Origin: a virus
DNA: 23,456 nucleotides
Reading direction: 5' to 3' (one strand)
Virus genome (UHGV): UHGV-0795592
The notes below the pieces were generated by a model, which saw only the letters and a program-made list of their open reading frames with translations, searched no databases and was not told the DNA's origin. Positions 8,532 to 23,456 of the stretch are shown one piece after another. A program made the position numbers and the translations under genes. Positions within the stretch are counted from its first letter, which is position 1; every line of letters begins with the position of its first letter.

Positions 8532-9719
8532 ATGGCAGTAGGTGAAATTCAAATTAGTGCCTTGCCTCAAGCAGCCTTACCAATTGACCTTAGTGATATC
8601 TTCCATCTTAAGCAGGGTATTGAGGATAAGAGATGTACTCTTGAGCAATTACTTGCTCCACACTCAAGCCTAAAAAATAACCCTCATGGTGTTACTAAGA
8701 CACAAATTGGTTTAGATAATGTTATTAATGCTCTTCAGTTAGTTGCTGCAAATAACTTATCAGATATTGTTAATGTAGCTGAGGCAAGAGCAAATCTACA
8801 GATTATGTCTTCAGAAGAGGTTAATAACCTTGTTCAGCAACATATTAAGGACAAGAGTAACCCACACAATACAACTAAGGCACAGGTTGGTTTAAGTAAT
8901 GTCCAGAACTGGACAACATCTAATCTGTATAACGAAGATGCAGATAAGTATGCTACAGCAAGAGCAGTAAATAACTTGTACAAGGCTGTTCAGGCTTCTT
9001 ATCCAGTAGGTACTATCCATCTTTCTATGAACTCTGCAAATCCTTCTACATACTTAATTTGTGGAGGTACTTGGGAGTTAGTTTCAAAAGGTAGGGCATT
9101 GGTTGGTTATGACTCTGATACAAGGCCAGCAGGTTCTGTATTTGGTGCTTCAACTGTCACTTTGTCAGTTAATAATATGCCTCAACACTCACACTCTGTG
9201 TCTCTCAGTGGTGGTGGTCACACTCATAATGCAACTGTTTCAATCTCAGCTTTTGACTATGGAACTAAGACTACCAACTCTTTTGACTATGGAACAAAGA
9301 CCACTAACACAACTGGTAACCACAATCACGTTGGTAGTGGGTCAACAAGTGCTGCTGGTGCTCACAACCACAGATTGACTTATGAAGCAGGTGGTGGTCT
9401 GTCGGAAAGACCTGCAATGGTTTGGTCTACAAGGAATGACCAATCGTGGTACTCAGCAGATGCTGTCTGCGAAGTCGCTGGTTCGCACACCCACTCTTTT
9501 AGCGTTACCACTAACACAACCGGTAACCACAATCACACAGTGGGTATTGGTGCTCATAGCCATACAGTTGGTATTGGTTCACATACACACAACGGTACTG
9601 TGACAGTTTCTTCTTCTGAGCATACACATAGCGGAAACACTAACAGTGTTGGTGGTGGACAAGCTTTCAACATTGAGCAGCCATCATTCGTACTGTATGT
9701 ATGGCAGAGAACAGCTTAA
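8532..9719 (+). CDS. tail fibre protein (receptor-binding), short paralogue
   Basis: 395 aa, Shine-Dalgarno AGGAG. Two copies of a fibre-repeat-like motif (NPH..TK.Q.GL.NV.N). Collar-like segment (YPVGTIHLSMNSANPSTYLICGGTWEL). C-terminal His-x-His array (QHSHS, GGHTHN, GNHNH, GAHNH, GSHTHS, GAHSHTVGIGSHTHN, EHTHS). Confidence 0.8.
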   Translation: MAVGEIQISALPQAALPIDLSDIFHLKQGIEDKRCTLEQLLAPHSSLKNNPHGVTKTQIGLDNVINALQLVAANNLSDIVNVAEARANLQIMSSEEVNNLVQQHIKDKSNPHNTTKAQVGLSNVQNWTTSNLYNEDADKYATARAVNNLYKAVQASYPVGTIHLSMNSANPSTYLICGGTWELVSKGRALVGYDSDTRPAGSVFGASTVTLSVNNMPQHSHSVSLSGGGHTHNATVSISAFDYGTKTTNSFDYGTKTTNTTGNHNHVGSGSTSAAGAHNHRLTYEAGGGLSERPAMVWSTRNDQSWYSADAVCEVAGSHTHSFSVTTNTTGNHNHTVGIGAHSHTVGIGSHTHNGTVTVSSSEHTHSGNTNSVGGGQAFNIEQPSFVLYVWQRTA

Positions 9720-9728
9720 TTTCTTTAC

Positions 9729-9751
9729 AGGGGCTTTATAGCCCCTTTTAA
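9729..9751 (+). terminator. weak intrinsic terminator or attenuator between the two tail-fibre genes
   Basis: Hairpin AGGGGCT-TTAT-AGCCCCT (9729-9746) followed by TTTTA. The T-run is short, so readthrough is likely. Confidence 0.4.
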
Positions 9752-9765
9752 GAGGAAAATTTATA

Positions 9766-12150
9766 ATGGCAGATTACAAGTTGAGTGAATTAAACTCAAT
9801 CGACACAATCCGTTCAGATGACCTTCTTCATGTCAGAGTTAAAAAGAGACCTGAAATGCTGGGTGATGAAGACCGTCGAATGACCTATCAAGACTTCTTA
9901 GCATCTTTTAAACTTGAGAGATTTGTTCAGATTGCTGGTAGCACTATGGCAGGTGACTTAGGAATTGTTAAGTTACTTTATGGTGGTAAGACAGTATTTG
10001 ACCCAACAGGCTCTTCTGAGATTAATATCGGAGATGTTTTAAAGTCTTTTAAAATCAACTCAAATGGTCTTAAGCTAACTATTGCAGATGCTTCAAGGTC
10101 AGCAACTGTTTACCATACTCTGAATAAACCAAGTCCTAATGAACTTGGGATGAGAACTAATGAAGAGAATGATGCAAGATATGCAAGATTAGCTGTAAAT
10201 AACACATTTAGAGGTACTCAAGCTATCCTCTCTGATAATGAAGCTCTTATTGTTAAGAACATTACACAAGGAATGCCGCTATATATTCGTGGTCAAGATG
10301 CAGACGGTACTAACAGGTGGTATCTAGGTAATGATAATAAAGGCACAGACAACCTTGTGTTAAAGAATGTCAAGACTGACGTTTCAATTGCTATTTTGGG
10401 AAATTTAGTAACAGTCAACAGGACTCTTCAAATTGCTGGTCAAGTTCAGCCATCAAGTTTTGCTAACTTGGATGCTAGATATTTTACTCAAACAGAAGCT
10501 AACCAGAGATTTGCACAGTTAGCTGGTAATAACACATTTAGTGGCTCTAATATTTTCACTAATTTTGTTGTTAAGAAGAATGCTAATGCTATTACTCTGC
10601 AAAATGTAGATACAACTGCTGCTTTGTATATCCGAGCAAGAAAATCAGATGGAACTAATAAGTGGTACATTGGTAATGACGGTGATGAGAACATTGTAAA
10701 CATCTATAACTATTTAGCAAGAACACAAATCTCACTAGGTAACACCATTACCATGAGCAGAACAGTCCAAATTGGTGGTCAAGTTCAACCTTCAGATTGG
10801 GCTAACATTGACTCTAGATACATCCCAGCCGCAACTTTGAGTAACCTACCTAAACTTAATGTTGCTAACACATTTGTGAATGTGCAAACTATTGTATCAA
10901 ATAATGAAGGCGTAGTATTAAGGAACTTAACACAGGGGCAGCCACAATATATCCGTGGTGTTGATACTGCGAATGTATCTAGATGGTGGGTAGGTGTGGG
11001 TGGCACAAATTCTACTGATGTAGCCTTAAACAATAGTTTCTCTGGCACTCAAATTACTCTTGGGACTTCAGTGATTAAGGCTAATAAGAATCTAACCATT
11101 ACTGGTCAAGTTCAGCCATCTGATTGGTCTAACTTAGATGCTAGATACTTTGTTAAGACTCAGTTATTAAATCAATCCTTGATGACTGTATCTGTAGATA
11201 ATCTTGAAAACCCTTCAGCATTTAATCTTGGGTATTCAGGTTTTGTCAGAAACAACAGTGTGACTAGTGGTCTGAAAGAGTTGGCAATTCATGTTGCTCA
11301 CTCTAATAAGTCTGCTGCACATGCAAGGGGTATCTCTTTTGTATACGGTTCAAATGGTTTGGCAACATTCACCTATGCCTATGACAAAAATGGTGACTAT
11401 GCCGGAGAGGCACAGCTTTACACAACTGATTTTAAACCAACCCCTTCAGATATCGGTGCATACACTAAAGCTGAGACTGACCAGAAGATTGCACAGGCAG
11501 TAAGTGACTCTACAGACCTTAATAAAATCTACCCAGTTGGTATTGTAACGTGGTTTAACAGTAATGTTAACCCTAATACAGCACTTCCTGGTCTAACTTG
11601 GACATACCTGAACAATGGTGTTGGTAGAACTATCAGAATCGCAGCAGCAAATGGTTCAGATGTTGCTACAACTGGTGGTTCAGATTCTGTAACGTTAGCT
11701 GTTGGTAACTTACCATCACACACTCACAGTTTCTCTGCTACCACTTCATCTTTTGATTATGGTACGAAGGGTACTAATAGCACTGGTGGTCATACTCACT
11801 CTGTAAGTGGTACAACAAGTGCTGCTGGTAACCACGCTCACCACTTAGGTCTGCTATTGGTTAATGGTGGTGATGCTCAGTACGGATATACCACTATTGG
11901 TAACAATAAGACAAGAACTCTTGACTGGCTTGACAGAACTGATAACAAGTTCCCTAACACTAACACAACTGGTAACCATACACACACATGGTCTGGTACT
12001 ACAAGTGGTGCTGGTAACCATTCCCACTCTGTAGGCATTGGTGCTCACAGCCACACAGTTAGTGGTAATACTGGTAGTACAGGTTCTGGTTCGGCATTTA
12101 GTGTTACTAACCAGTTCTACAAGTTAATGGCTTGGGTAAGAACTGCTTAA
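9766..12150 (+). CDS. tail fibre protein (receptor-binding), long paralogue
   Basis: 794 aa, Shine-Dalgarno AGAGGAA. Three tandem repeats of about 105 aa. Collar-like segment ([27 protein letters not shown]). C-terminal His-x-His array (PSHTHS, GGHTHS, GNHAHH, GNHTHT, GNHSHS, GAHSHT) and the same FDYGTK motif as the 395-aa fibre. Confidence 0.8.
10186..11152 (+). repeat. three in-frame tandem repeats (about 105 codons each) inside the long tail-fibre gene
   Basis: Each protein repeat has the form NNTF.G…N.TQG.P.YIRG.D..GTN.WY.GND…RTLQI.GQVQPS.(F/W).N.D.RY. Approximate repeat starts are 10186, 10510 and 10849. Confidence 0.6.
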
Positions 12151-17293: not shown

Positions 17294-17899
<606 letters not shown>

Positions 17900-17950
17900 T
17901 TAGTTGCTTGTTAAGTTGTTTGTAAAGAACCCTCAACAGAAGACTCTTTA

Positions 17951-18280
17951 GAAACTTGGTAGATTTTTAACGTGGCTGCTACCATCCACCCATACTTTAC
18001 CTAACCAAACCGAACCTCACACAACCAGACCGAGCCGCACCCCGCCTTATTAAAAGACCCTCTTAAAGACCTTTTAAAAAGGTAAGTCTCATTTTAATGT
18101 AGCTGAGACTAACTACCCATACCCTACTTTACCTTACCGTACAGTACTTTACCCGACCACACCGGACAATACTTAACCCTACCTCACCCGACCGGACATC
18201 ACTTAAAAACCCTTTTCAAAAACTCTTAAGTGATGCTGGTGAGTACCCGTTGGTTTATGCTGCTCAGTATACTCACCAAA
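17951..18280. repeat. modular non-coding repeat region B, homologous to region A: two (ACCNN)n arrays, M1, M2 and hairpins
   Basis: Arrays at 17994-18043 and 18121-18205. M1 variant at 18047-18082 (2-3 differences). Hairpin at 18085-18110 identical to region A but for one loop base. M2 at 18202-18235 (1 mismatch). Extra 8-bp-stem hairpin at 18238-18277. Confidence 0.75.
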
Positions 18281-18300
18281 TTTTCTATGTCAACAACTTT

Positions 18301-19404
18301 TTATTCGTAGTCTCGAATAACGAGACCGACAGGGAACTGTAAAGAACCCTTACGAGTCATCTTCTGGAACTGAACCGTCAAAGGTTTCCCGATAAACTCT
18401 TCAGGATGTTCAGCAAGATACTGTTTCTTCTCATGAGTAGTCTTCCATGAGACATCTACAAAGACGTTAGGAAGAGTCTCTACAACGAACTTGCCATGAC
18501 CACGCTTATCAGTCTTTACACCAGTCACTTTAAACTCTTCAGTGTGCATCTTCTTGTGCTTAATCAAGAAGTATGAACGGTGACAACACTCATAGAAGGA
18601 GTCTTCAGAGATTGAACGGTACATTGCACCTTCAAACTTAGCTTCAACCCACTTATCATGAGCTTCATCGAACTCTTCCCAAGAATTTACACGACGTGAC
18701 TTAACAGGGACAACTTTACAGCCATCTCTAAAGCCATTCAATGGTGAAGTCTCAATAATATCTCTACGCTCAGGCCACGTCTTAGTACTGTCACAGATAT
18801 CATACCAGTAAAACTTGAGCAAGTGTCTGTCAGGATTGTCTTCATTTTTAATCATGGAGACGATATCTTCTAAGTCCCACCCATGAGCATAAATCTCTCC
18901 ATCAAATTCATCAACATCTTTGTGGAGCCTTAACATTGCCATAATGTCAGGTATTAGTTCAGTAGGGATTTTGTAAACAGTATTCTCACGAGAATATGCT
19001 GTAAATACACTGCCAATACTCAAGTGCCTTGAAATTCTACAACGTACACCATCCAGTTTTGGTTGAGCATCAGCAGGGAATTTCAGATACTTTGCATGAC
19101 TAACCTTTGCAGCATCATGAGCAAGCTGTACACCTACCTTTTCAGTATTCTGTGCAGACTCTTTTGTGTAAGCATAACCTTTGCGGTCAACTTGCTTTTT
19201 ATACTTAGCAGCAACTTCGAAGAGAGCTTGCTGTTCAGCGTTACGCTCATTCTTTTTACCGATGTTTTTAGGTTCTGCTGTATACTCTTCAAACATCATC
19301 TTGCCATTCTCTTTACCGTAGGTTGTAATAACTTTGTCACCTACAGCAACACACGACCAGACGTTAAAAGAGCCGTCTTTATTTTGTTTGTACAGTATTG
19401 TCAT
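18301..19404 (-). CDS. ATP-dependent DNA ligase
   Basis: Adenylation motif I KLDGVR (…PADAQPKLDGVRCRI…) and downstream FLIKHKK-type lysine motif. Start re-called to ATG at 19404 (MTILYKQNKDG…) with Shine-Dalgarno AGAGGA; about 367 aa. Confidence 0.85.
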   Translation of the reverse strand: MTILYKQNKDGSFNVWSCVAVGDKVITTYGKENGKMMFEEYTAEPKNIGKKNERNAEQQALFEVAAKYKKQVDRKGYAYTKESAQNTEKVGVQLAHDAAKVSHAKYLKFPADAQPKLDGVRCRISRHLSIGSVFTAYSRENTVYKIPTELIPDIMAMLRLHKDVDEFDGEIYAHGWDLEDIVSMIKNEDNPDRHLLKFYWYDICDSTKTWPERRDIIETSPLNGFRDGCKVVPVKSRRVNSWEEFDEAHDKWVEAKFEGAMYRSISEDSFYECCHRSYFLIKHKKMHTEEFKVTGVKTDKRGHGKFVVETLPNVFVDVSWKTTHEKKQYLAEHPEEFIGKPLTVQFQKMTRKGSLQFPVGLVIRDYE

Positions 19405-19405
19405 T

Positions 19406-19597
19406 TTATTCCTCTGAGTGATACCAAGTATTGCAAGCATTACATGCGTAAAGCTCTAAGTCATTTTTATCCGGTTTATGAAAGCAGTTTGCTCCGCAGT
19501 GGCAACGAAAAGGTTTTCCACCAACTGTCAGGATGAAGGATTGAACCTTCCCATCAGGAGTAAGTACAGCATTCTTATTCTTACCTTCTTTATTCAT
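19406..19597 (-). CDS. zinc-ribbon small protein
   Basis: 63 aa with CHCGANC … CNAC cysteine clusters. ATG start. Stop lies 1 nt before the ligase Shine-Dalgarno and ATG. Confidence 0.45.
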   Translation of the reverse strand: MNKEGKNKNAVLTPDGKVQSFILTVGGKPFRCHCGANCFHKPDKNDLELYACNACNTWYHSEE

Positions 19598-19751
19598 TCT
19601 GCTCTTTCCTTTTCAGATTTCATATAAGACCTGTTACTACACCTTTTAATGAAATGCACAACGCATTTTGGCGTATTCTTTGCATCTTTGATGTGCAATC
19701 TCTCGAAACTGTGTACTGTGAAGGTTGCATCTGTCATTGTTTGCTTAGGTT

Positions 19752-19958
19752 TCACTTTCTCTTACCACCAATCTCTACGTCAATAACTTGAACATCGCCA
19801 GCAACATCAAACTTATGAATGATGCTCTCCACAGTGTAAGTCCAACCCTCGATTCGAACCAACTCACCTTCTCGTGGGACGATTGGGTTACGTTGAGCTA
19901 CGGTTGTAGTGGAGTGAACAGTATCATAACAGTAGATATAGTTTACTAAGACTTGCAT
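19752..19958 (-). CDS. hypothetical small protein
   Basis: Start re-called to ATG at 19958 (MQVLVNYIY…) with Shine-Dalgarno TGAGGT; the track start at 19973 is GTG. About 68 aa. Confidence 0.4.
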   Translation of the reverse strand: MQVLVNYIYCYDTVHSTTTVAQRNPIVPREGELVRIEGWTYTVESIIHKFDVAGDVQVIDVEIGGKRK

Positions 19959-19969
19959 CGTAAAAAACC

Positions 19970-20206
19970 TCACTCAATAACCGTAGTGTGTGATTGACTA
20001 TTTTTACCATAACGATAAGATGTTGTCGTTTGAGAGTTTGGACATCTGACAACAACAATATCTGTGCTTATTGCATCCCCATTTAGCTTATAGACTTTAC
20101 AATCTTGCATCTCTGGTGGGAGACTATAAGAAGCATTTTTATCTTCATAAGAAGGGTTGCAGCCAGCTAGAAAGATAACACCAAGCACAATTACTGCTTT
20201 CCACAT
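19970..20206 (-). CDS. small lipoprotein (candidate superinfection-exclusion factor)
   Basis: Start re-called to ATG at 20206 with Shine-Dalgarno GGGGTG. Signal peptide MWKAVIVLGVIFLAG followed by C (lipobox L-A-G-C) and Asn at +2. Mature part about 63 aa with three further Cys. Confidence 0.55.
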   Translation of the reverse strand: MWKAVIVLGVIFLAGCNPSYEDKNASYSLPPEMQDCKVYKLNGDAISTDIVVVRCPNSQTTTSYRYGKNSQSHTTVIE

Positions 20207-20219
20207 AATACACCCCTGT

Positions 20220-20375
20220 TTACTGTTCACGATGCTCTACTTCTCTGTATGTGCGTCGATAATGAATGATAAGTGGTGCTAATTCATTGCTTTTAACATT
20301 TGAGCGTAACAGTTGCCAGTCAAAGCCTTTACCAACTCTTCCATACAAATTAAAAAACTTAACTTTGCGTTTCAT
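20220..20375 (-). CDS. small basic ORF, 51 aa, not in the supplied track
   Basis: Hand-translated: MKRKVKFFNLYGRVGKGFDWQLLRSNVKSNELAPLIIHYRRTYREVEHREQ. ATG at 20373-20375 with GGGGA upstream. Fills the otherwise empty gap between neighbouring genes exactly. Confidence 0.3.
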   Translation of the reverse strand: MKRKVKFFNLYGRVGKGFDWQLLRSNVKSNELAPLIIHYRRTYREVEHREQ

Positions 20376-20393
20376 TTTCGGTATCCCCAATAT

Positions 20394-20606
20394 TTAGAAG
20401 TCAATACTAATACGTTCGCCCTTAAGGACTCCAGTACGGTCCCTTGCAATCTTACCATCAACAATAAGGATATGCGCAGACATTAAAGTATCCCGATTAA
20501 AACTTTTTACGAACTTACTAGGCATCACCACAATGGACATCTCCTGAATTAACTCTGGAGTATAGCAGTTGTCGTGAAGTTGCTGAATAACGTCTGAAAG
20601 TGTCAT
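20394..20606 (-). CDS. hypothetical small protein
   Basis: 70 aa, ATG with strong Shine-Dalgarno AGGAGGT 5 nt upstream. Directly downstream of the DNA polymerase gene. Confidence 0.45.
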   Translation of the reverse strand: MTLSDVIQQLHDNCYTPELIQEMSIVVMPSKFVKSFNRDTLMSAHILIVDGKIARDRTGVLKGERISIDF

Positions 20607-20667
20607 ATAACCTCCTATACAAGATACAGTATAAGGTACTCTTCCATGAGCACCTTGTCAATACTAA

Positions 20668-23367
20668 TTAGTGAACCTCAAGCCAGCTTTTGCCAACCTT
20701 ACCAGTGCCTGTAACAAGTGTTTCTTTCTTAAGACCTAAGTTCTTAGAAGCTTGTCCATAATACCAGTCAGTAACTGCTTTCACCTCTGCCGTCATACTT
20801 TCTGGACATTCCCAACTTGTTTCGTCGTGATATGCGCAGAGCAAACGAGCACCAATAGCTGGTTTACGTCCATTTAACTTCATCAAGCCTTCGTCAATCA
20901 TACGACGACAAGCAAGGTTAATTGCCTCATTTTGAATCTGAGCCTCCGAACCCATAAGCAAATAATTCAACAACTTATGTGGAGATTTACACCACAACCA
21001 AGCTCCAGCAACCTTTACAAAACCCCCTTTAGAGATTGCAGCAGTCTTACCAAACACCTCTTCAAGTGCCTTTTTAGTTGCTTTGTAGTCAGCTTCCAAG
21101 TTATCTAATAATTTCTTAATCTTTGGCAAACGCACAAAGTAAGTCTGTTTAGTTAATGCACCTTCCTGAGTAGTGGCTGCCTTAATAGTTTTAGCAAACT
21201 TCTCATCACCTGCACCAAACAGCAGTGCATAGATACCATTCTTAGCTTTCTTACGACCTTTACTAATCTCATGAAGAAGATTCTCATCCTGCGTTGCACG
21301 ACAAGTCAAGATATCCTGCTCATCATTCAAGCTAAAGTAAATACTGTTCAGTGTATGTGCATCAGTCCCTGAATAGACAACGTACAGGTCATTCTCAGAG
21401 TCATAGCGCAGGTACTTATCAATCTCTGGGTTGAGGTACTCATCAAAGTGTTTGCAGTAATAGCGTCCATCTTCTTGACGAATAAACTCAATCTCTTCTT
21501 TACCTTGCGTTACCGCTTTGGTGAAGTCTTTGTCACCCATAAAGTTGCAAAGAAGAACTAGCTGGGCTGAGTTCATGTCTACAGAGACAACGTTAGTACC
21601 TTCTTCACAAATCCACACTGCCCTCATTGGTTCCCCATAGACAGCAGCACCAGACGGTACGTTTACAATACCATATTGTGTCATACGTCCAGTTGAAGTA
21701 CCAAACACCATTGCGCCAGCACTAAGGCGACCATCTGGACGAATCTGGTTCAACCAACCTTTTTCATCATCCTTTGAGTTCTCAATAGTTCTGCGTCGGT
21801 GCATCAAAGTATAGTACTTAGCAATCTTCTGTCCAAGCTCACCTTCAATCGTATCATAAGATGATTCAGTAAGTTTTGGTGAAGTACGGATTAAGCAAGG
21901 TTCAAGCAAATCTGTGTACTTCTTTACAGACCAGTTATGCTCAATGTACTGGACACCTTCATGCTCAACGTAACTCAAGCCACACCGTTCTACCATCTCC
22001 TGCCACTTAGGATGTTTTGTAATCATCTTTTTATTGTCTTTGAAACGACAAACTTTGACAGGGCGACCGTCTGAATCTTTCTTATAGTTCCAGTCATCTG
22101 GAATCCAACCAACTGATTTCAAGTAGTCTTTAACAACTGCTACCTGAGTCATACGAGAAACTTCAAACTCAATTGGTGTATATGGTGCATCAATCAATCC
22201 TGTGTAGCGACTTGACTCAAGTTCAAAATGGTTAACAACGTGGCTGTTATAATACTTCACAGTCTTGACAGTTTTTACTGGCTTCCAGTCTTTGCATTTC
22301 TTACCAATCTTCGCATTCAACTCATTGCAAATTGCACGAGCATCCTTCATTGCTACAAAACCTTCCTTATACTCTTCACCAGTTACGGAGTTGGTTGGGG
22401 TGTAGCAATTTCTCTTTTCAATGTTAAAAATCTTTGTAGTTGGCTTACCAAATGGCTTGATTTCGTATGTCTGCATTTCACCATTACGTACCTGTTGACG
22501 ATACTTCGTCTTAGGATACTTGGTAATTCTCTTCAGTCCATCTGCATGACCGAATGCTTCAACATACTCATTCCAAGCTTTTGCAAACTCTTCTCCAGTG
22601 ACTTTACCTTTGGTCTTAATAGTTGGAGGTAGATGTGGTTCAACCTCTGAAGCAAGCTCATTAGTCAACTTGTCAAGTTCCTTTACATGGAACTCCATAA
22701 GCTCTTTATCAGCTTTCCAGCCATTGATAGCTTGTTGACTCATCCAGAAAGATGTTTCTTTAGCTCGCATGTAGGTTTCATAAGTGTCTATGCCACACTT
22801 CTTAAGCTTGAGATATTCATTATCCAGTGCACGTTTAGTTTTGGCGTTAATACGGATATCCTCTACAACACGAGTGAAGATTTCTGCATTCCACACACCC
22901 CAATGTTCAATCTCTGGTTTACGGACACCAACACGAGCACCCCATGCAGCCAAGCCATGAGCACCTTTATAGCCCTTTGGAGTTGGTCTATCCATCCACT
23001 GAACACGGGACTGGATAAGAGAATCCTGAAAGAAATTACTCCACGGCTTACACTTTGGATTATCAAAGTTCCACAAATCGGGTGCGATGTGATTGAAAAC
23101 CCACCAGTCATAACCGAGACCATTATGGATGCAAAGACGTTTTGCCTTTAACGCAAACTCAATACCTTCGCGTAGCCCACCCTTAATGTACTTGGTGTAT
23201 TTGTGACCGAGGATAGGCTCATCTGTAAAGACCCATACAGGTGGCTCTTCATCGTCAGATTTATAGTCTGCGAAAGCCATTACGTGCACTTTAGTGAACT
23301 CAAGGAGTAAACCATCAGTTTCTGTATCACCAACTAAATGTAAGTTTTTAAAATCTACGTTTTCCAT
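20668..23367 (-). CDS. family A DNA polymerase (T7 gp5-like) with 3'-5' exonuclease domain
   Basis: Exo I DTETDG. Motif A-like VSVDMNSAQLVLL. Motif B RKKAKNGIYALLFGAG. Motif C YHDE. Also HGLAAWGARVG, resembling T7 gp5. Start re-called to ATG at 23367 (MENVDFK…) with Shine-Dalgarno AGGGAG; the track start at 23397 has none. Confidence 0.9.
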   Translation of the reverse strand: MENVDFKNLHLVGDTETDGLLLEFTKVHVMAFADYKSDDEEPPVWVFTDEPILGHKYTKYIKGGLREGIEFALKAKRLCIHNGLGYDWWVFNHIAPDLWNFDNPKCKPWSNFFQDSLIQSRVQWMDRPTPKGYKGAHGLAAWGARVGVRKPEIEHWGVWNAEIFTRVVEDIRINAKTKRALDNEYLKLKKCGIDTYETYMRAKETSFWMSQQAINGWKADKELMEFHVKELDKLTNELASEVEPHLPPTIKTKGKVTGEEFAKAWNEYVEAFGHADGLKRITKYPKTKYRQQVRNGEMQTYEIKPFGKPTTKIFNIEKRNCYTPTNSVTGEEYKEGFVAMKDARAICNELNAKIGKKCKDWKPVKTVKTVKYYNSHVVNHFELESSRYTGLIDAPYTPIEFEVSRMTQVAVVKDYLKSVGWIPDDWNYKKDSDGRPVKVCRFKDNKKMITKHPKWQEMVERCGLSYVEHEGVQYIEHNWSVKKYTDLLEPCLIRTSPKLTESSYDTIEGELGQKIAKYYTLMHRRRTIENSKDDEKGWLNQIRPDGRLSAGAMVFGTSTGRMTQYGIVNVPSGAAVYGEPMRAVWICEEGTNVVSVDMNSAQLVLLCNFMGDKDFTKAVTQGKEEIEFIRQEDGRYYCKHFDEYLNPEIDKYLRYDSENDLYVVYSGTDAHTLNSIYFSLNDEQDILTCRATQDENLLHEISKGRKKAKNGIYALLFGAGDEKFAKTIKAATTQEGALTKQTYFVRLPKIKKLLDNLEADYKATKKALEEVFGKTAAISKGGFVKVAGAWLWCKSPHKLLNYLLMGSEAQIQNEAINLACRRMIDEGLMKLNGRKPAIGARLLCAYHDETSWECPESMTAEVKAVTDWYYGQASKNLGLKKETLVTGTGKVGKSWLEVH

Positions 23368-23399
23368 TTTTACTCCCTCTAAAATCATTAACCTCATAC

Positions 23400-23456
23400 A
23401 TTACTGCAAAAAATTATAAAAAGCAAGTTGACAATGTACTTGACAAGGTGTTAATC
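23400..23456 (-). promoter_or_regulatory. possible promoter for the polymerase operon
   Basis: Perfect TATAAT on the minus strand (plus 23413-23418) in an AT-rich context, about 45 nt upstream of the ATG. No good -35 (AAGTAC at 17 bp). The window ends here. Confidence 0.2.

What the first reader, a model, noticed from the sequence alone, without database searches (positions are those of the whole stretch)
19970..20206. Small lipoprotein encoded inside the replication operon
The ORF has a textbook lipoprotein signal (lipobox LAGC, Asn at +2 suggesting outer-membrane targeting) and a roughly 63-residue mature part with three cysteines. A virulent phage has little use for an envelope lipoprotein in its replication block. 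One precedent is phage T5 Llp, a small lipoprotein that blocks the phage receptor to prevent superinfection. The analogy is functional only; I see no sequence similarity.
Basis: inference. Interest (0 to 1): 0.55.

Follow-up and report, generated by a model that had tools for sequence, protein, structure and literature searches.

The report
Conserved phage periplasmic lipoprotein, function unknown
The ORF is a real, strongly conserved small lipoprotein gene (uncharacterised family DUF4884 / PHROG 902) carried by Felix O1-like and many other virulent phages of Gram-negative bacteria; it probably acts in the periplasm on a conserved envelope target and does not look like a T5 Llp-type receptor blocker.

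Summary
A 78-codon gene lies on the minus strand at 19970-20206, with a good ribosome-binding site, a signal peptide, the lipobox LAGC and a 63-residue mature part with three cysteines. It sits between the DNA polymerase and DNA ligase genes of a Felixounavirus.

It is not an oddity. It belongs to a large family (PHROG 902; DUF4884 in precomputed Pfam tables). That family has 528 clusters at 50% identity and occurs in 587 phage records, including Felix O1-, rV5-, T4- and T5-like and jumbo phages. It is almost absent from bacterial genomes.

The acylated Cys and two further Cys are invariant. The motif LPxEL-DCK...VVRCPNSxTTT...GK is conserved. dN/dS is 0.11.

In published Bas63 knockout data, disrupting the orthologue lowers phage fitness on all three hosts I read.

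The Llp analogy fails every test I could run:
- no sequence or fold similarity;
- the gene is not next to the tail-fibre genes;
- conservation does not track the fibre tips;
- the receptor is LPS;
- some homologues carry Asp at +2, which predicts inner-membrane retention.

Best guess (confidence about 0.4): a periplasmic effector that binds a conserved envelope component and protects the infected cell. The function is untested.

The parts
19970..20206 (-). CDS of the lipoprotein precursor (78 aa plus TGA stop at 19970-19972); orthologue of Felix O1 ORF213 and Bas63 bas63_0042
   Evidence: PHROG 902 E=1.5e-16; dN/dS 0.11
20213..20217 (-). Shine-Dalgarno-like AGGGG, 6 nt upstream of ATG 20206. 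The upstream ORF's TAA is at 20220-20222.
   Evidence: read from the sequence
20162..20206 (-). Signal peptide, residues 1-15 (MWKAVIVLGVIFLAG)
   Evidence: 14 of 69 family members hit Pfam LPAM_1, the lipoprotein lipid attachment site
20159..20170 (-). Lipobox L-A-G-C (residues 13-16). The Cys16 codon TGC at 20159-20161 is the predicted acylation site and the first residue of the mature protein.
   Evidence: C16 invariant; lipobox in 150 of 162 homologues
19973..20161 (-). Mature part, residues 16-78 (63 aa): a polar tether (NPSYEDKNASYS) followed by a small predicted beta-sheet domain
   Evidence: AF2 models with pLDDT 71.7 and 64.5, five strands
20096..20122 (-). Conserved motif L-P-x-E-[LM]-x-D-C-K (residues 29-37). 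The Cys36 codon is at 20099-20101.
   Evidence: P30 and C36 invariant; D35 81%, K37 64%
20033..20053 (-). Conserved motif V-V-R-C-P-N-S (residues 52-58), followed by xTTT. The Cys55 codon is at 20042-20044. C55 is the presumed disulfide partner of Cys36.
   Evidence: C55 invariant; P56 95%, R54/N57/S58 about 80%, T60 92%
20003..20008 (-). Conserved G-K (residues 67-68)
   Evidence: G67 89%, K68 92%
20668..23397 (-). DNA polymerase gene at the head of the same-strand gene block (context)
18301..19440 (-). ATP-dependent DNA ligase gene at the end of the same-strand block (context)
   Evidence: no minus-strand terminator-like site between polymerase and ligase, and the only minus-strand promoter-like matches lie inside the polymerase gene

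Best explanation
**Shown.** The ORF is a real, expressed-looking gene for a small secreted lipoprotein of the uncharacterised family DUF4884 / PHROG 902. It is packed with the replication genes of a Felix O1-like virulent phage and is under strong purifying selection.

[quoted passage not shown] There a roughly 12-residue polar tether holds a small beta-sheet domain in the periplasm, stabilised by a Cys36-Cys55 disulfide.

**Inferred function.** Through its near-invariant surface motifs (LPxEL-DCK, VVRCPNSxTTT, GK), the domain binds a component of the cell envelope that is conserved across Gram-negative hosts, or a conserved part of incoming phage tails. This protects the infected cell's envelope during the latent period. 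It would block genome delivery or cell-wall damage by further phages (superinfection, lysis from without), in the manner of T4 Sp/Imm. It would not mask the receptor as T5 Llp does.
For: **Real gene.**
- Ribosome-binding site and tight spacing to neighbours.
- Conserved in 587 phage records.
- dN/dS 0.11 overall and 0.06 for the mature part.

**Export and lipidation.**
- Lipobox in 150 of 162 homologues.
- LPAM_1 hits in family members.
- UniProt labels several members 'Lipoprotein'.
- Two further invariant Cys fit a disulfide formed in the oxidising periplasm.

**Family and distribution.**
- PHROG 902, E=1.5e-16.
- PF16225/DUF4884 in precomputed tables.
- 528 clusters at 50% identity.
- Found in Ounavirinae, rV5-like, T4-like (Aeromonas), T5-like (Vibrio), jumbo and Acinetobacter phages.
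- The motif scan confirmed 38 relatives in viral contigs but only 1 in 185,579 species genomes.

**A conserved target rather than a receptor.**
- The same core motif occurs in phages with unrelated hosts and receptors.
- There is no linkage to fibre genes, and conservation is decoupled from the fibre tips.
- The predicted anchoring membrane differs. Felixounavirus homologues have Asn at +2 and the rV5-like phage 4MG has Gly. The Yersinia and Serratia/Erwinia jumbo-phage homologues and the Aeromonas phage homologue have Asp at +2.
- This fits a target reachable from either membrane.

**Contribution to infection.** Barcode insertions in Bas63 gene 42 give fitness of -0.59 to -1.55 on S17, MG1655 and BW25113. 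Genes 44 and 45 are positive throughout and gene 46 mostly neutral, while the spanins (g89, g90) are mostly neutral to positive with some scatter (PhageMaP supplement).
Against: - There is no direct functional evidence for any family member.
- The AF2 models are only moderately confident (pLDDT 64-72) and have no informative structural neighbour. The fold gives no functional hint.
- The fitness defect could come from disturbed translational coupling to the essential genes 41-39 downstream. Gene 43 is also mildly negative.
- The defect appears in ordinary liquid culture, which fits a role in the phage's own cycle (lysis timing, envelope integrity) at least as well as exclusion.
- The hosts of most homologues are unknown, so the +2 argument rests on a few phages and on the E. 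coli sorting rule.
Confidence: 0.4

Rival explanations
1. Llp/Cor-type receptor blocker. The lipoprotein binds the periplasmic face of the phage's outer-membrane receptor and allosterically closes the binding site. This would prevent superinfection and loss of progeny on cell debris.
For: It has the same size class, a lipobox, predicted outer-membrane sorting, a disulfide and early/middle expression, as described for Llp. hhalign gives 84.6% probability when the signal peptides are included, with a short P-x-[DE]-h-x-C-x-x-Y resemblance.
Against: - Without the signal peptide, hhalign probability is 0.5%.
- No PDB sequence or fold match to 7QJF/8A60.
- No Llp/Cor PHROG hit at E<=1.
- The gene is not adjacent to the fibre genes, unlike llp.
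- Conservation is decoupled from the fibre tips.
- Bas63 is LPS-dependent.
- The family core is conserved across phages with unrelated receptors.
- Some homologues in phages of enterobacteria have Asp at +2.
Confidence: 0.08
2. Lysis-timing or envelope-integrity factor for the phage's own cycle. A periplasmic inhibitor or regulator of a muralytic enzyme, a host autolysin or lytic transglycosylase, or the holin/endolysin/spanin pathway. It would keep the envelope intact until assembly is complete.
For: - Knock-out fitness is negative on all three laboratory hosts I read, similar in size to the putative holin g29. This is easiest to explain by an effect on burst size or latent period.
- The family is concentrated in large virulent phages with long cycles.
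- The periplasmic location fits.
Against: - It is never found in or next to lysis cassettes in the loci inspected.
- It is expressed with replication genes.
- The lysis proteins of these phage groups are unrelated to one another, while the lipoprotein core is conserved.
Confidence: 0.22
3. Host-takeover or counter-defence effector in the envelope. It would inhibit a conserved outer-membrane or periplasmic machine (for example Lpt, Bam, Lol, Tol-Pal, envelope stress sensors or vesiculation) or an envelope-associated anti-phage system.
For: A conserved core across Gram-negative host clades suggests a conserved host target. The family is restricted to phages. It sits in accessory regions among small early/middle ORFs.
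Against: - No PADLOC similarity.
- Gene 42 is not named in the PhageMaP text, including its section on defence-system screens.
- The fitness effect is seen in hosts carrying no added defence systems.
- No candidate target is identified.
Confidence: 0.15
4. An o-spanin (Rz1-like outer-membrane lipoprotein of the lysis machinery).
For: It is a small outer-membrane lipoprotein. There is a weak PHROG hit to an Rz-like spanin family, confined to the signal peptide (E=0.21, residues 3-21).
Against: - No i-spanin gene is adjacent or overlapping, and the neighbours have no transmembrane segment.
- It is not in a lysis cassette.
- Bas63 has separately annotated i- and o-spanins (g89, g90).
- The mature domain is a Cys-bridged beta domain, not a short proline-rich peptide.
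Confidence: 0.02
5. Chance ORF, or a cytoplasmic protein whose N-terminus merely resembles a lipoprotein signal.
For: None beyond the absence of experimental proof. Some genome records leave it unannotated, for example phage ekra.
Against: dN/dS is 0.11. The lipobox is conserved in 150 of 162 homologues despite signal-peptide sequence turnover. Three Cys are invariant. It has a ribosome-binding site.
Confidence: 0.02

Closest known systems
Pfam PF16225 (DUF4884) / PHROG 902: uncharacterised small lipoprotein family
   Same: The window protein matches PHROG 902 (E=1.5e-16). All retrieved homologues carry PF16225 in the precomputed tables. It shares the lipobox, three invariant Cys and the LPxEL-DCK / VVRCPNSxTTT / GK motifs. 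UniProt names some members 'Lipoprotein'.
   Different: Nothing distinguishes it from the family; this is an ordinary member. It lacks the C-terminal 'VVIDGxxY' extension found in about a quarter of members and the extra CGKxC pair found in about a tenth. The local Pfam hmmscan did not reproduce the PF16225 hit.
T5 Llp (lytic conversion lipoprotein; PDB 7QJF, 8A60) and the Cor lipoproteins of T1/phi80
   Same: A small (about 60 aa mature) phage-encoded lipoprotein with one intramolecular disulfide, made before late genes and predicted to face the periplasm from the outer membrane. It may serve to protect the infected cell.
   Different: - No detectable sequence or fold relationship.
- The Llp disulfide ties the N- and C-termini (Cys11-Cys58), whereas here the pair is internal (C36-C55, 19 residues apart).
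- llp/cor lie beside the receptor-binding-protein gene and target TonB-dependent transporters. This gene is in the replication block of an LPS-dependent phage and is conserved across phages with unrelated receptors.
T4 Sp (spackle) and Imm: post-adsorption superinfection exclusion and resistance to lysis from without
   Same: This is the proposed functional analogy: an early/middle-expressed envelope protein of a virulent myovirus acting in the periplasm, independent of receptor identity (my own knowledge of T4 biology).
   Different: Sp is a soluble periplasmic helical protein and Imm an inner-membrane protein; neither is a lipoprotein. The family profile found no sequence match in the PDB, which as far as I recall holds Spackle structures. 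The analogy is inference only.
Rz1-type o-spanins
   Same: Small phage outer-membrane lipoproteins.
   Different: No partner i-spanin gene, not in a lysis cassette, different mature domain. Separate spanins exist in the orthologous Bas63 genome.

Membership tests
Bacterial-type lipoprotein precursor (Lgt/LspA substrate) | Lipobox [LVI][ASTVI][GAS]C with the Cys at position 15-35 | tested here: met
   L13-A14-G15-C16; lipobox in 150 of 162 homologues
Bacterial-type lipoprotein precursor (Lgt/LspA substrate) | Positively charged n-region and an uncharged hydrophobic h-region before the lipobox | tested here: met
   K3, then AVIVLGVIF with no charged residue. The Felix O1-type alleles have MNNKVKSCVKAMVALGVIFLAGC.
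Bacterial-type lipoprotein precursor (Lgt/LspA substrate) | Actual lipidation and signal peptidase II cleavage | not testable with these tools
   Needs globomycin or palmitate labelling. SignalP and LipoP were not available.
DUF4884 (PF16225) / PHROG 902 | Significant match to the family profile | tested here: met
   PHROG 902 E=1.5e-16 over residues 1-76. PF16225 is listed for all 37 full-length homologues in the precomputed tables and is unmarked (E<=1e-5) for P0152. The local Pfam hmmscan returned no PF16225 hit, an unexplained discrepancy.
DUF4884 (PF16225) / PHROG 902 | Conserved core: acylated Cys, two further Cys about 20 and about 18 residues apart, LPxEL-DCK, VVRCPNSxTTT, GK | tested here: met
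   Alignments A1 and A3; Cys spacings
T5 Llp / Cor superinfection-exclusion lipoproteins | Sequence similarity to Llp or Cor | tested here: not met
   hhalign of the mature family profile versus mature Llp gives probability 0.5%. phmmer and hmmsearch against the PDB (which holds 7QJF and 8A60_B) give no hit. No Llp/Cor PHROG at E<=1.
T5 Llp / Cor superinfection-exclusion lipoproteins | Fold similarity to Llp | tested here: inconclusive
T5 Llp / Cor superinfection-exclusion lipoproteins | Gene adjacent to the receptor-binding-protein gene | tested here: not met
   The fibre genes are at 8532-12150 on the plus strand and the lipoprotein gene at 19970-20206 on the minus strand, about 7.8 kb away. 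The arrangement is the same in 8 relatives. llp is adjacent to pb5.
T5 Llp / Cor superinfection-exclusion lipoproteins | Co-variation with receptor specificity; the receptor is an outer-membrane protein (TonB-dependent transporter) | tested here: not met
   Lipoprotein identity is 88-91% where fibre tips are 54-75%. Bas63 is described as LPS-dependent. The family core is shared by phages of Vibrio, Aeromonas, Acinetobacter and enterobacteria.
T5 Llp / Cor superinfection-exclusion lipoproteins | Blocks adsorption when expressed | not testable with these tools
   Needs adsorption and plating assays.
o-spanin (Rz1-like) | Partner i-spanin gene embedded, overlapping or adjacent, within a lysis cassette | tested here: not met
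   The neighbours are 56-aa and 68-aa proteins of unknown PHROGs without hydrophobic segments. Spanins are annotated elsewhere in Bas63 (g89, g90).
T4 Sp (spackle) | Sequence or fold similarity to Sp | tested here: not met

The most novel reading that the evidence does not exclude
DUF4884 lipoproteins are a previously unrecognised, pan-Gram-negative class of phage envelope effectors. A tethered, disulfide-locked mini-domain uses the invariant DCK / RCPNSxTTT surface to bind one conserved periplasmic machine or cell-wall element. It would give receptor-independent superinfection exclusion or envelope stabilisation in many unrelated virulent phage lineages.
Probability: 0.3. Interest if true: 0.7.

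Novelty: new variant of a known kind. Interest (0 to 1): 0.45.

Why it matters
Phage-encoded envelope lipoproteins with a known role are few: Llp/Cor receptor blockers and o-spanins. This family is different from both and much more widespread.
- It is found in Felix O1-, rV5-, T4-, T5-like and jumbo phages.
- It is under strong constraint and virtually restricted to phages.
- In the one genome-wide knockout dataset available, it is needed for full fitness.

Identifying its target would explain a recurrent 'hypothetical protein' in hundreds of therapeutic-candidate phage genomes. It could reveal a conserved weak point of the Gram-negative envelope, or a receptor-independent exclusion mechanism relevant to designing phage cocktails.

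As it stands, the finding is a well-supported annotation of a known uncharacterised family, not a demonstrated new mechanism.

Tried and rejected
1. **Pfam, NCBIfam, PADLOC and PDB sequence searches with the protein and with family profiles.**
   - These gave nothing beyond lipoprotein-signal hits and a sub-threshold chance hit to Zn_ribbon_InsA.
   - The local Pfam scan did not reproduce the precomputed PF16225 assignment. I could not resolve why.
3. **Profile comparison with T5 Llp.** The apparent 84.6% probability comes almost entirely from the signal peptide. It falls to 0.5% for the mature parts.
4. **Bacterial genomes.**
   - The scan with the broad alignment failed for lack of a conserved stretch.
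   - With a narrower alignment, only the exact motif VVRCPNSxT[STA] was scanned. Divergent bacterial DUF4884 members such as B. thetaiotaomicron BT_3183 would be missed.
5. **Literature.**
   - I found no functional study of DUF4884, PHROG 902 or a Felix O1 lipoprotein.
   - I found no Felixounavirus transcriptome.
   - PhageMaP does not discuss gene 42.
6. **T1-like DUF4884 gene.** I looked for it with a second query in order to test co-occurrence with cor. The query retrieved myoviruses instead, so that test was not done.
7. **o-spanin and chance-ORF readings.** Both were rejected, as set out under the rival explanations.

Full report
**1. What is in the sequence**

The window is a Felixounavirus (Felix O1-like virulent myovirus). 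The stretch 19000-21500 matches 262 phage records at 80-95% nucleotide identity, nearly all Escherichia, Salmonella, Shigella or Citrobacter Ounavirinae.

The product begins MWKAVIVLGVIFLAG-C. It has one basic residue, a ten-residue uncharged hydrophobic core, and L-A-G-C at positions -3 to +1. The mature part is 63 residues with Asn at +2 and cysteines at 16, 36 and 55.

The gene sits in a same-strand block running from the DNA polymerase (20668-23397) to the DNA ligase (18301-19440). Five other tiny ORFs of unknown PHROGs share the block. There is no minus-strand terminator-like site in between, and the only minus-strand promoter-like matches lie inside the polymerase gene itself. Co-transcription with the replication genes is likely but inferred.

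**2. It is a real, constrained gene**

I extracted orthologues from 29 Ounavirinae loci. Together with the window gene they gave 27 distinct nucleotide sequences, 21 of them 78 codons long. Pairwise Nei-Gojobori dN/dS is 0.11 (mean dS 0.67), and 0.06 for the mature part alone.

The signal peptide changes sequence between clades. Mooglevirus has MLKLLIPALVVLLVGC and Felix O1 proper has MNNKVKSCVKAMVALGVIFLAGC. Even so, it always keeps a lipobox.

**3. It belongs to a large phage family**

- tblastn finds relatives in 587 phage records.
- An exhaustive HMMER search of 1.84 billion cluster representatives finds 528 clusters at E<=0.001.
- Of 162 sequences retrieved, 150 have a lipobox and 112 have exactly three Cys in the mature part.
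- In alignments of 69 and 96 members the acylated Cys and the two further Cys are invariant.
- Other near-invariant positions are P30 (invariant or nearly so), P56 95%, T60 92%, K68 92%, G67 89%, and D35, V52, R54, N57 and S58 about 80%.

The family signature is C-(tether)-LPxEL-DCK(I/V)(Y/F)xL...(V)VRCPNSxTTT...GK.

*Named families.* The protein matches PHROG 902 ('unknown function', E=1.5e-16). The precomputed tables attached to the protein databases assign PF16225 = DUF4884 to all full-length homologues. The local Pfam scan did not reproduce this for any member. I report that as an unexplained discrepancy.

*Literature.* In the searchable literature DUF4884 appears only in annotation tables: a T1-like phage (Henu8 gp6) and Bacteroides thetaiotaomicron BT_3183.

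*Phage groups.* Carriers include:
- Felixounavirus and Mooglevirus, including Felix O1 ORF213 and BASEL phage Bas63 (bas63_0042);
- rV5-like phages (4MG, CR8);
- T4-like Aeromonas phages (Ahp1, Aeh1);
- T5-like Vibrio phages (JSF10 and about 290 Vibrio crassostreae phages);
- jumbo phages of 350-386 kb infecting Escherichia, Yersinia, Erwinia and Serratia;
- Acinetobacter myophages.

*Genomic setting.* In all loci inspected it lies among small early/middle-type ORFs. Examples are beside thioredoxin and NAD-salvage genes, inside a tRNA cluster, and near an NAD ligase. It is never in a lysis cassette or next to fibre genes.

*Phage versus bacterial genomes.* A scan for the core peptide motif confirmed 38 relatives in IMG/VR contigs. 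It confirmed only one in one genome each of 185,579 bacterial and archaeal species, in a Hylemonella contig. That scan sees only the exact motif, so divergent bacterial members are not excluded.

**4. Structure**

AlphaFold2 with family alignments predicts a signal helix followed by a five-stranded antiparallel beta-sheet. Confidence is moderate (pLDDT 71.7 for the full length, 64.5 for the mature part).

**5. Testing the Llp analogy**

I recovered the T5 Llp sequence from PDB entries 8A60_B and 7QJF_A.

- *Sequence.* Profile-to-sequence comparison gives 84.6% probability if signal peptides are included. The aligned region is then the signal peptide plus a short P-x-acidic-h-x-C-x-x-Y stretch. 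With mature parts only the probability is 0.5%.
- *Disulfide.* Llp's disulfide joins its termini (Cys11-Cys58). Here the two Cys are 19 residues apart in the middle of the domain.
- *Gene position.* llp lies directly downstream of the receptor-binding-protein gene. Here the two tail-fibre genes (8532-9719 and 9766-12150, plus strand) are about 7.8 kb away on the other strand. The same holds in eight relatives.
- *Co-variation with fibre tips.* Across those relatives the lipoprotein stays 88-91% identical within the genus. The long-fibre tip falls to 70-75% and the short-fibre tip to 54-60%.
- *Receptor.* Bas63 is described as LPS-dependent. LPS sits in the outer leaflet, out of reach of a periplasmic lipoprotein.
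- *Breadth.* One conserved core is shared by phages of Vibrio, Aeromonas, Acinetobacter and enterobacteria, which cannot share a receptor.
- *Sorting signal.* The residue at +2 is Asn in Felixounavirus and Gly in the rV5-like 4MG. It is Asp, the E. coli inner-membrane retention signal, in the Yersinia and Serratia/Erwinia jumbo-phage homologues (GCDG) and in the Aeromonas phage homologue. This suggests the function does not depend on being at the outer membrane.

Membership in the Llp/Cor family is therefore rejected. The receptor-masking mechanism is unlikely.

**6. Experimental hint**

The PhageMaP preprint (10.1101/2024.10.10.617714) made barcoded insertions in every Bas63 gene. Its supplementary table gives these fitness values:

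| Bas63 gene | S17 | MG1655 | BW25113 |
|---|---|---|---|
| 42 (this orthologue) | -0.59 / -0.79 / -0.78 | -1.02 / -1.13 / -1.35 | -1.55 / -0.92 / -0.83 |

For comparison, across the three hosts:
- genes 44 and 45: about +0.04 to +0.76;
- gene 46 (homing endonuclease): mostly neutral, -0.75 to +0.64, with high variance;
- gene 43: -0.28 to -0.65;
- gene 41: -0.19 to -1.29;
- gene 40: -1.96 to -3.45;
- ligase (gene 39): -0.07 to -1.80;
- spanins (g89, g90): mostly neutral to positive, about -0.42 to +1.14.

The authors treat fitness below 0 as 'essential' and argue that barcode insertion avoids polar effects. Gene 42 is not named in the paper's text. I read this as evidence that the lipoprotein contributes to fitness under ordinary laboratory conditions. 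The caveat is that insertions could disturb translational coupling to the essential downstream genes.

**7. Most likely mechanism**

*Shown:*
- it is a conserved lipoprotein-type precursor;
- the family is restricted to phages;
- it is under strong purifying selection;
- it sits in the replication gene block.

*Inferred from established lipoprotein biology:*
- Sec export;
- Lgt/LspA/Lnt processing at Cys16;
- Lol transfer to the outer membrane for this Asn+2 allele;
- a periplasmic Cys36-Cys55 disulfide.

*Inferred function:* the tethered mini-domain binds a conserved envelope component, or a conserved part of incoming tails. It protects the infected cell after adsorption, for example against superinfection or lysis from without, as T4 Sp and Imm do. 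I give this about 0.4.

*Rivals:*
- a role in the phage's own lysis timing or envelope integrity, which would explain the knockout defect at least as simply (about 0.2);
- an envelope-directed host-takeover or counter-defence function (about 0.15);
- an Llp-like receptor blocker (below 0.1);
- an o-spanin or a chance ORF (about 0.02 each).

**8. Novelty and verdict**

The gene itself is not new. Near-identical copies are deposited as 'hypothetical protein', and the family is catalogued as DUF4884 / PHROG 902. No member has a known function, and the family is unrelated to the characterised phage lipoproteins.

I therefore rate it a new variant of a known kind (phage envelope lipoproteins), of moderate interest. 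The premise that it is unusual is wrong. The specific functional analogy is not supported.

Noticed in passing
window 19406-19597 (-): A 63-aa ORF with CxC...C / CxxC spacing (…FRCHCGANCFH…YACNACNTW…), probably a zinc ribbon, overlaps the ligase start. Its Bas63 counterpart (gene 40, labelled 'DNA ligase*') has the strongest fitness defect in the block (-2 to -3.4). PhageMaP reports that it becomes less essential in several defence systems and tested expressing it in cells carrying the hhe system.
   Followed up: partly
window 18266-18293 (-): A near-consensus sigma-70-like promoter (TTGACA-16-TATACT, 11 of 12 matches) lies immediately downstream of the ligase gene. It is the best promoter-like site in 17800-23456 and may start the next minus-strand transcription unit.
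   Followed up: no
L050 12501-12734 (phage ekra); L054 12438-12695 (Felix O1 ORF213); L055 12655-12912 (Bas63 gene 41): Annotation of this small-ORF block is inconsistent between records. The lipoprotein gene is not annotated at all in phage ekra. It is annotated from an upstream start in Felix O1 and BPS15S6. The Bas63 gene 41 annotation overlaps gene 42 by 41 nt.
   Followed up: partly
L049 7828-11332; L051 8567-11534: In Salmonella phages VSe11 and BPS15S6 the DNA polymerase is annotated in two pieces. In VSe11 an endonuclease gene lies between them, and in BPS15S6 an unannotated gap of about 230 bp. Homing (HNH or other) endonuclease genes also come and go just downstream of the polymerase. 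The window's polymerase gene is intact (909 aa) with no endonuclease after it.
   Followed up: no
family members P0041, P0102, P0113, P0134 and others: About a quarter of family members (41 of 155) carry a C-terminal extension with one or two copies of a short 'h-h-(I/V)-(D/N)-G-x-x-Y' motif, separated by Pro/Ala/Ser-rich linkers. About a tenth (17 of 155) have an extra CGKxC pair. The window protein ends just where the first motif would begin (…TTVIE).
   Followed up: partly
The precomputed tables assign PF16225 (DUF4884) to every homologue, but the local Pfam-A hmmscan returns no PF16225 hit for any of more than 70 members, even at E<=10. Either the model is missing from the local copy or a filter removes the hits.
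   Followed up: partly
L008 6001-6231 (Hylemonella gracilis ATCC 19624 contig NZ_AEGR01000062.1): This is the only bacterial-genome relative found with the core motif. Of six large neighbouring ORFs, only one matches a PHROG (unknown function), so it is unclear whether this is a prophage, a contaminating phage contig or a chromosomal copy.
   Followed up: partly
GU169904.1 'Staphylococcus phage SA1' 94355-94597: A 147-kb record labelled as a Staphylococcus phage carries a homologue of this Gram-negative-type lipoprotein. It has the same size as the rV5-like coliphages, so its host label looks doubtful.
   Followed up: no
L003 (Vibrio phage JSF10) 3998-4258: In this T5-like Vibrio phage the homologue sits alone between tRNA genes, inside the tRNA cluster. 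That is an unusual place for a protein-coding accessory gene.
   Followed up: no
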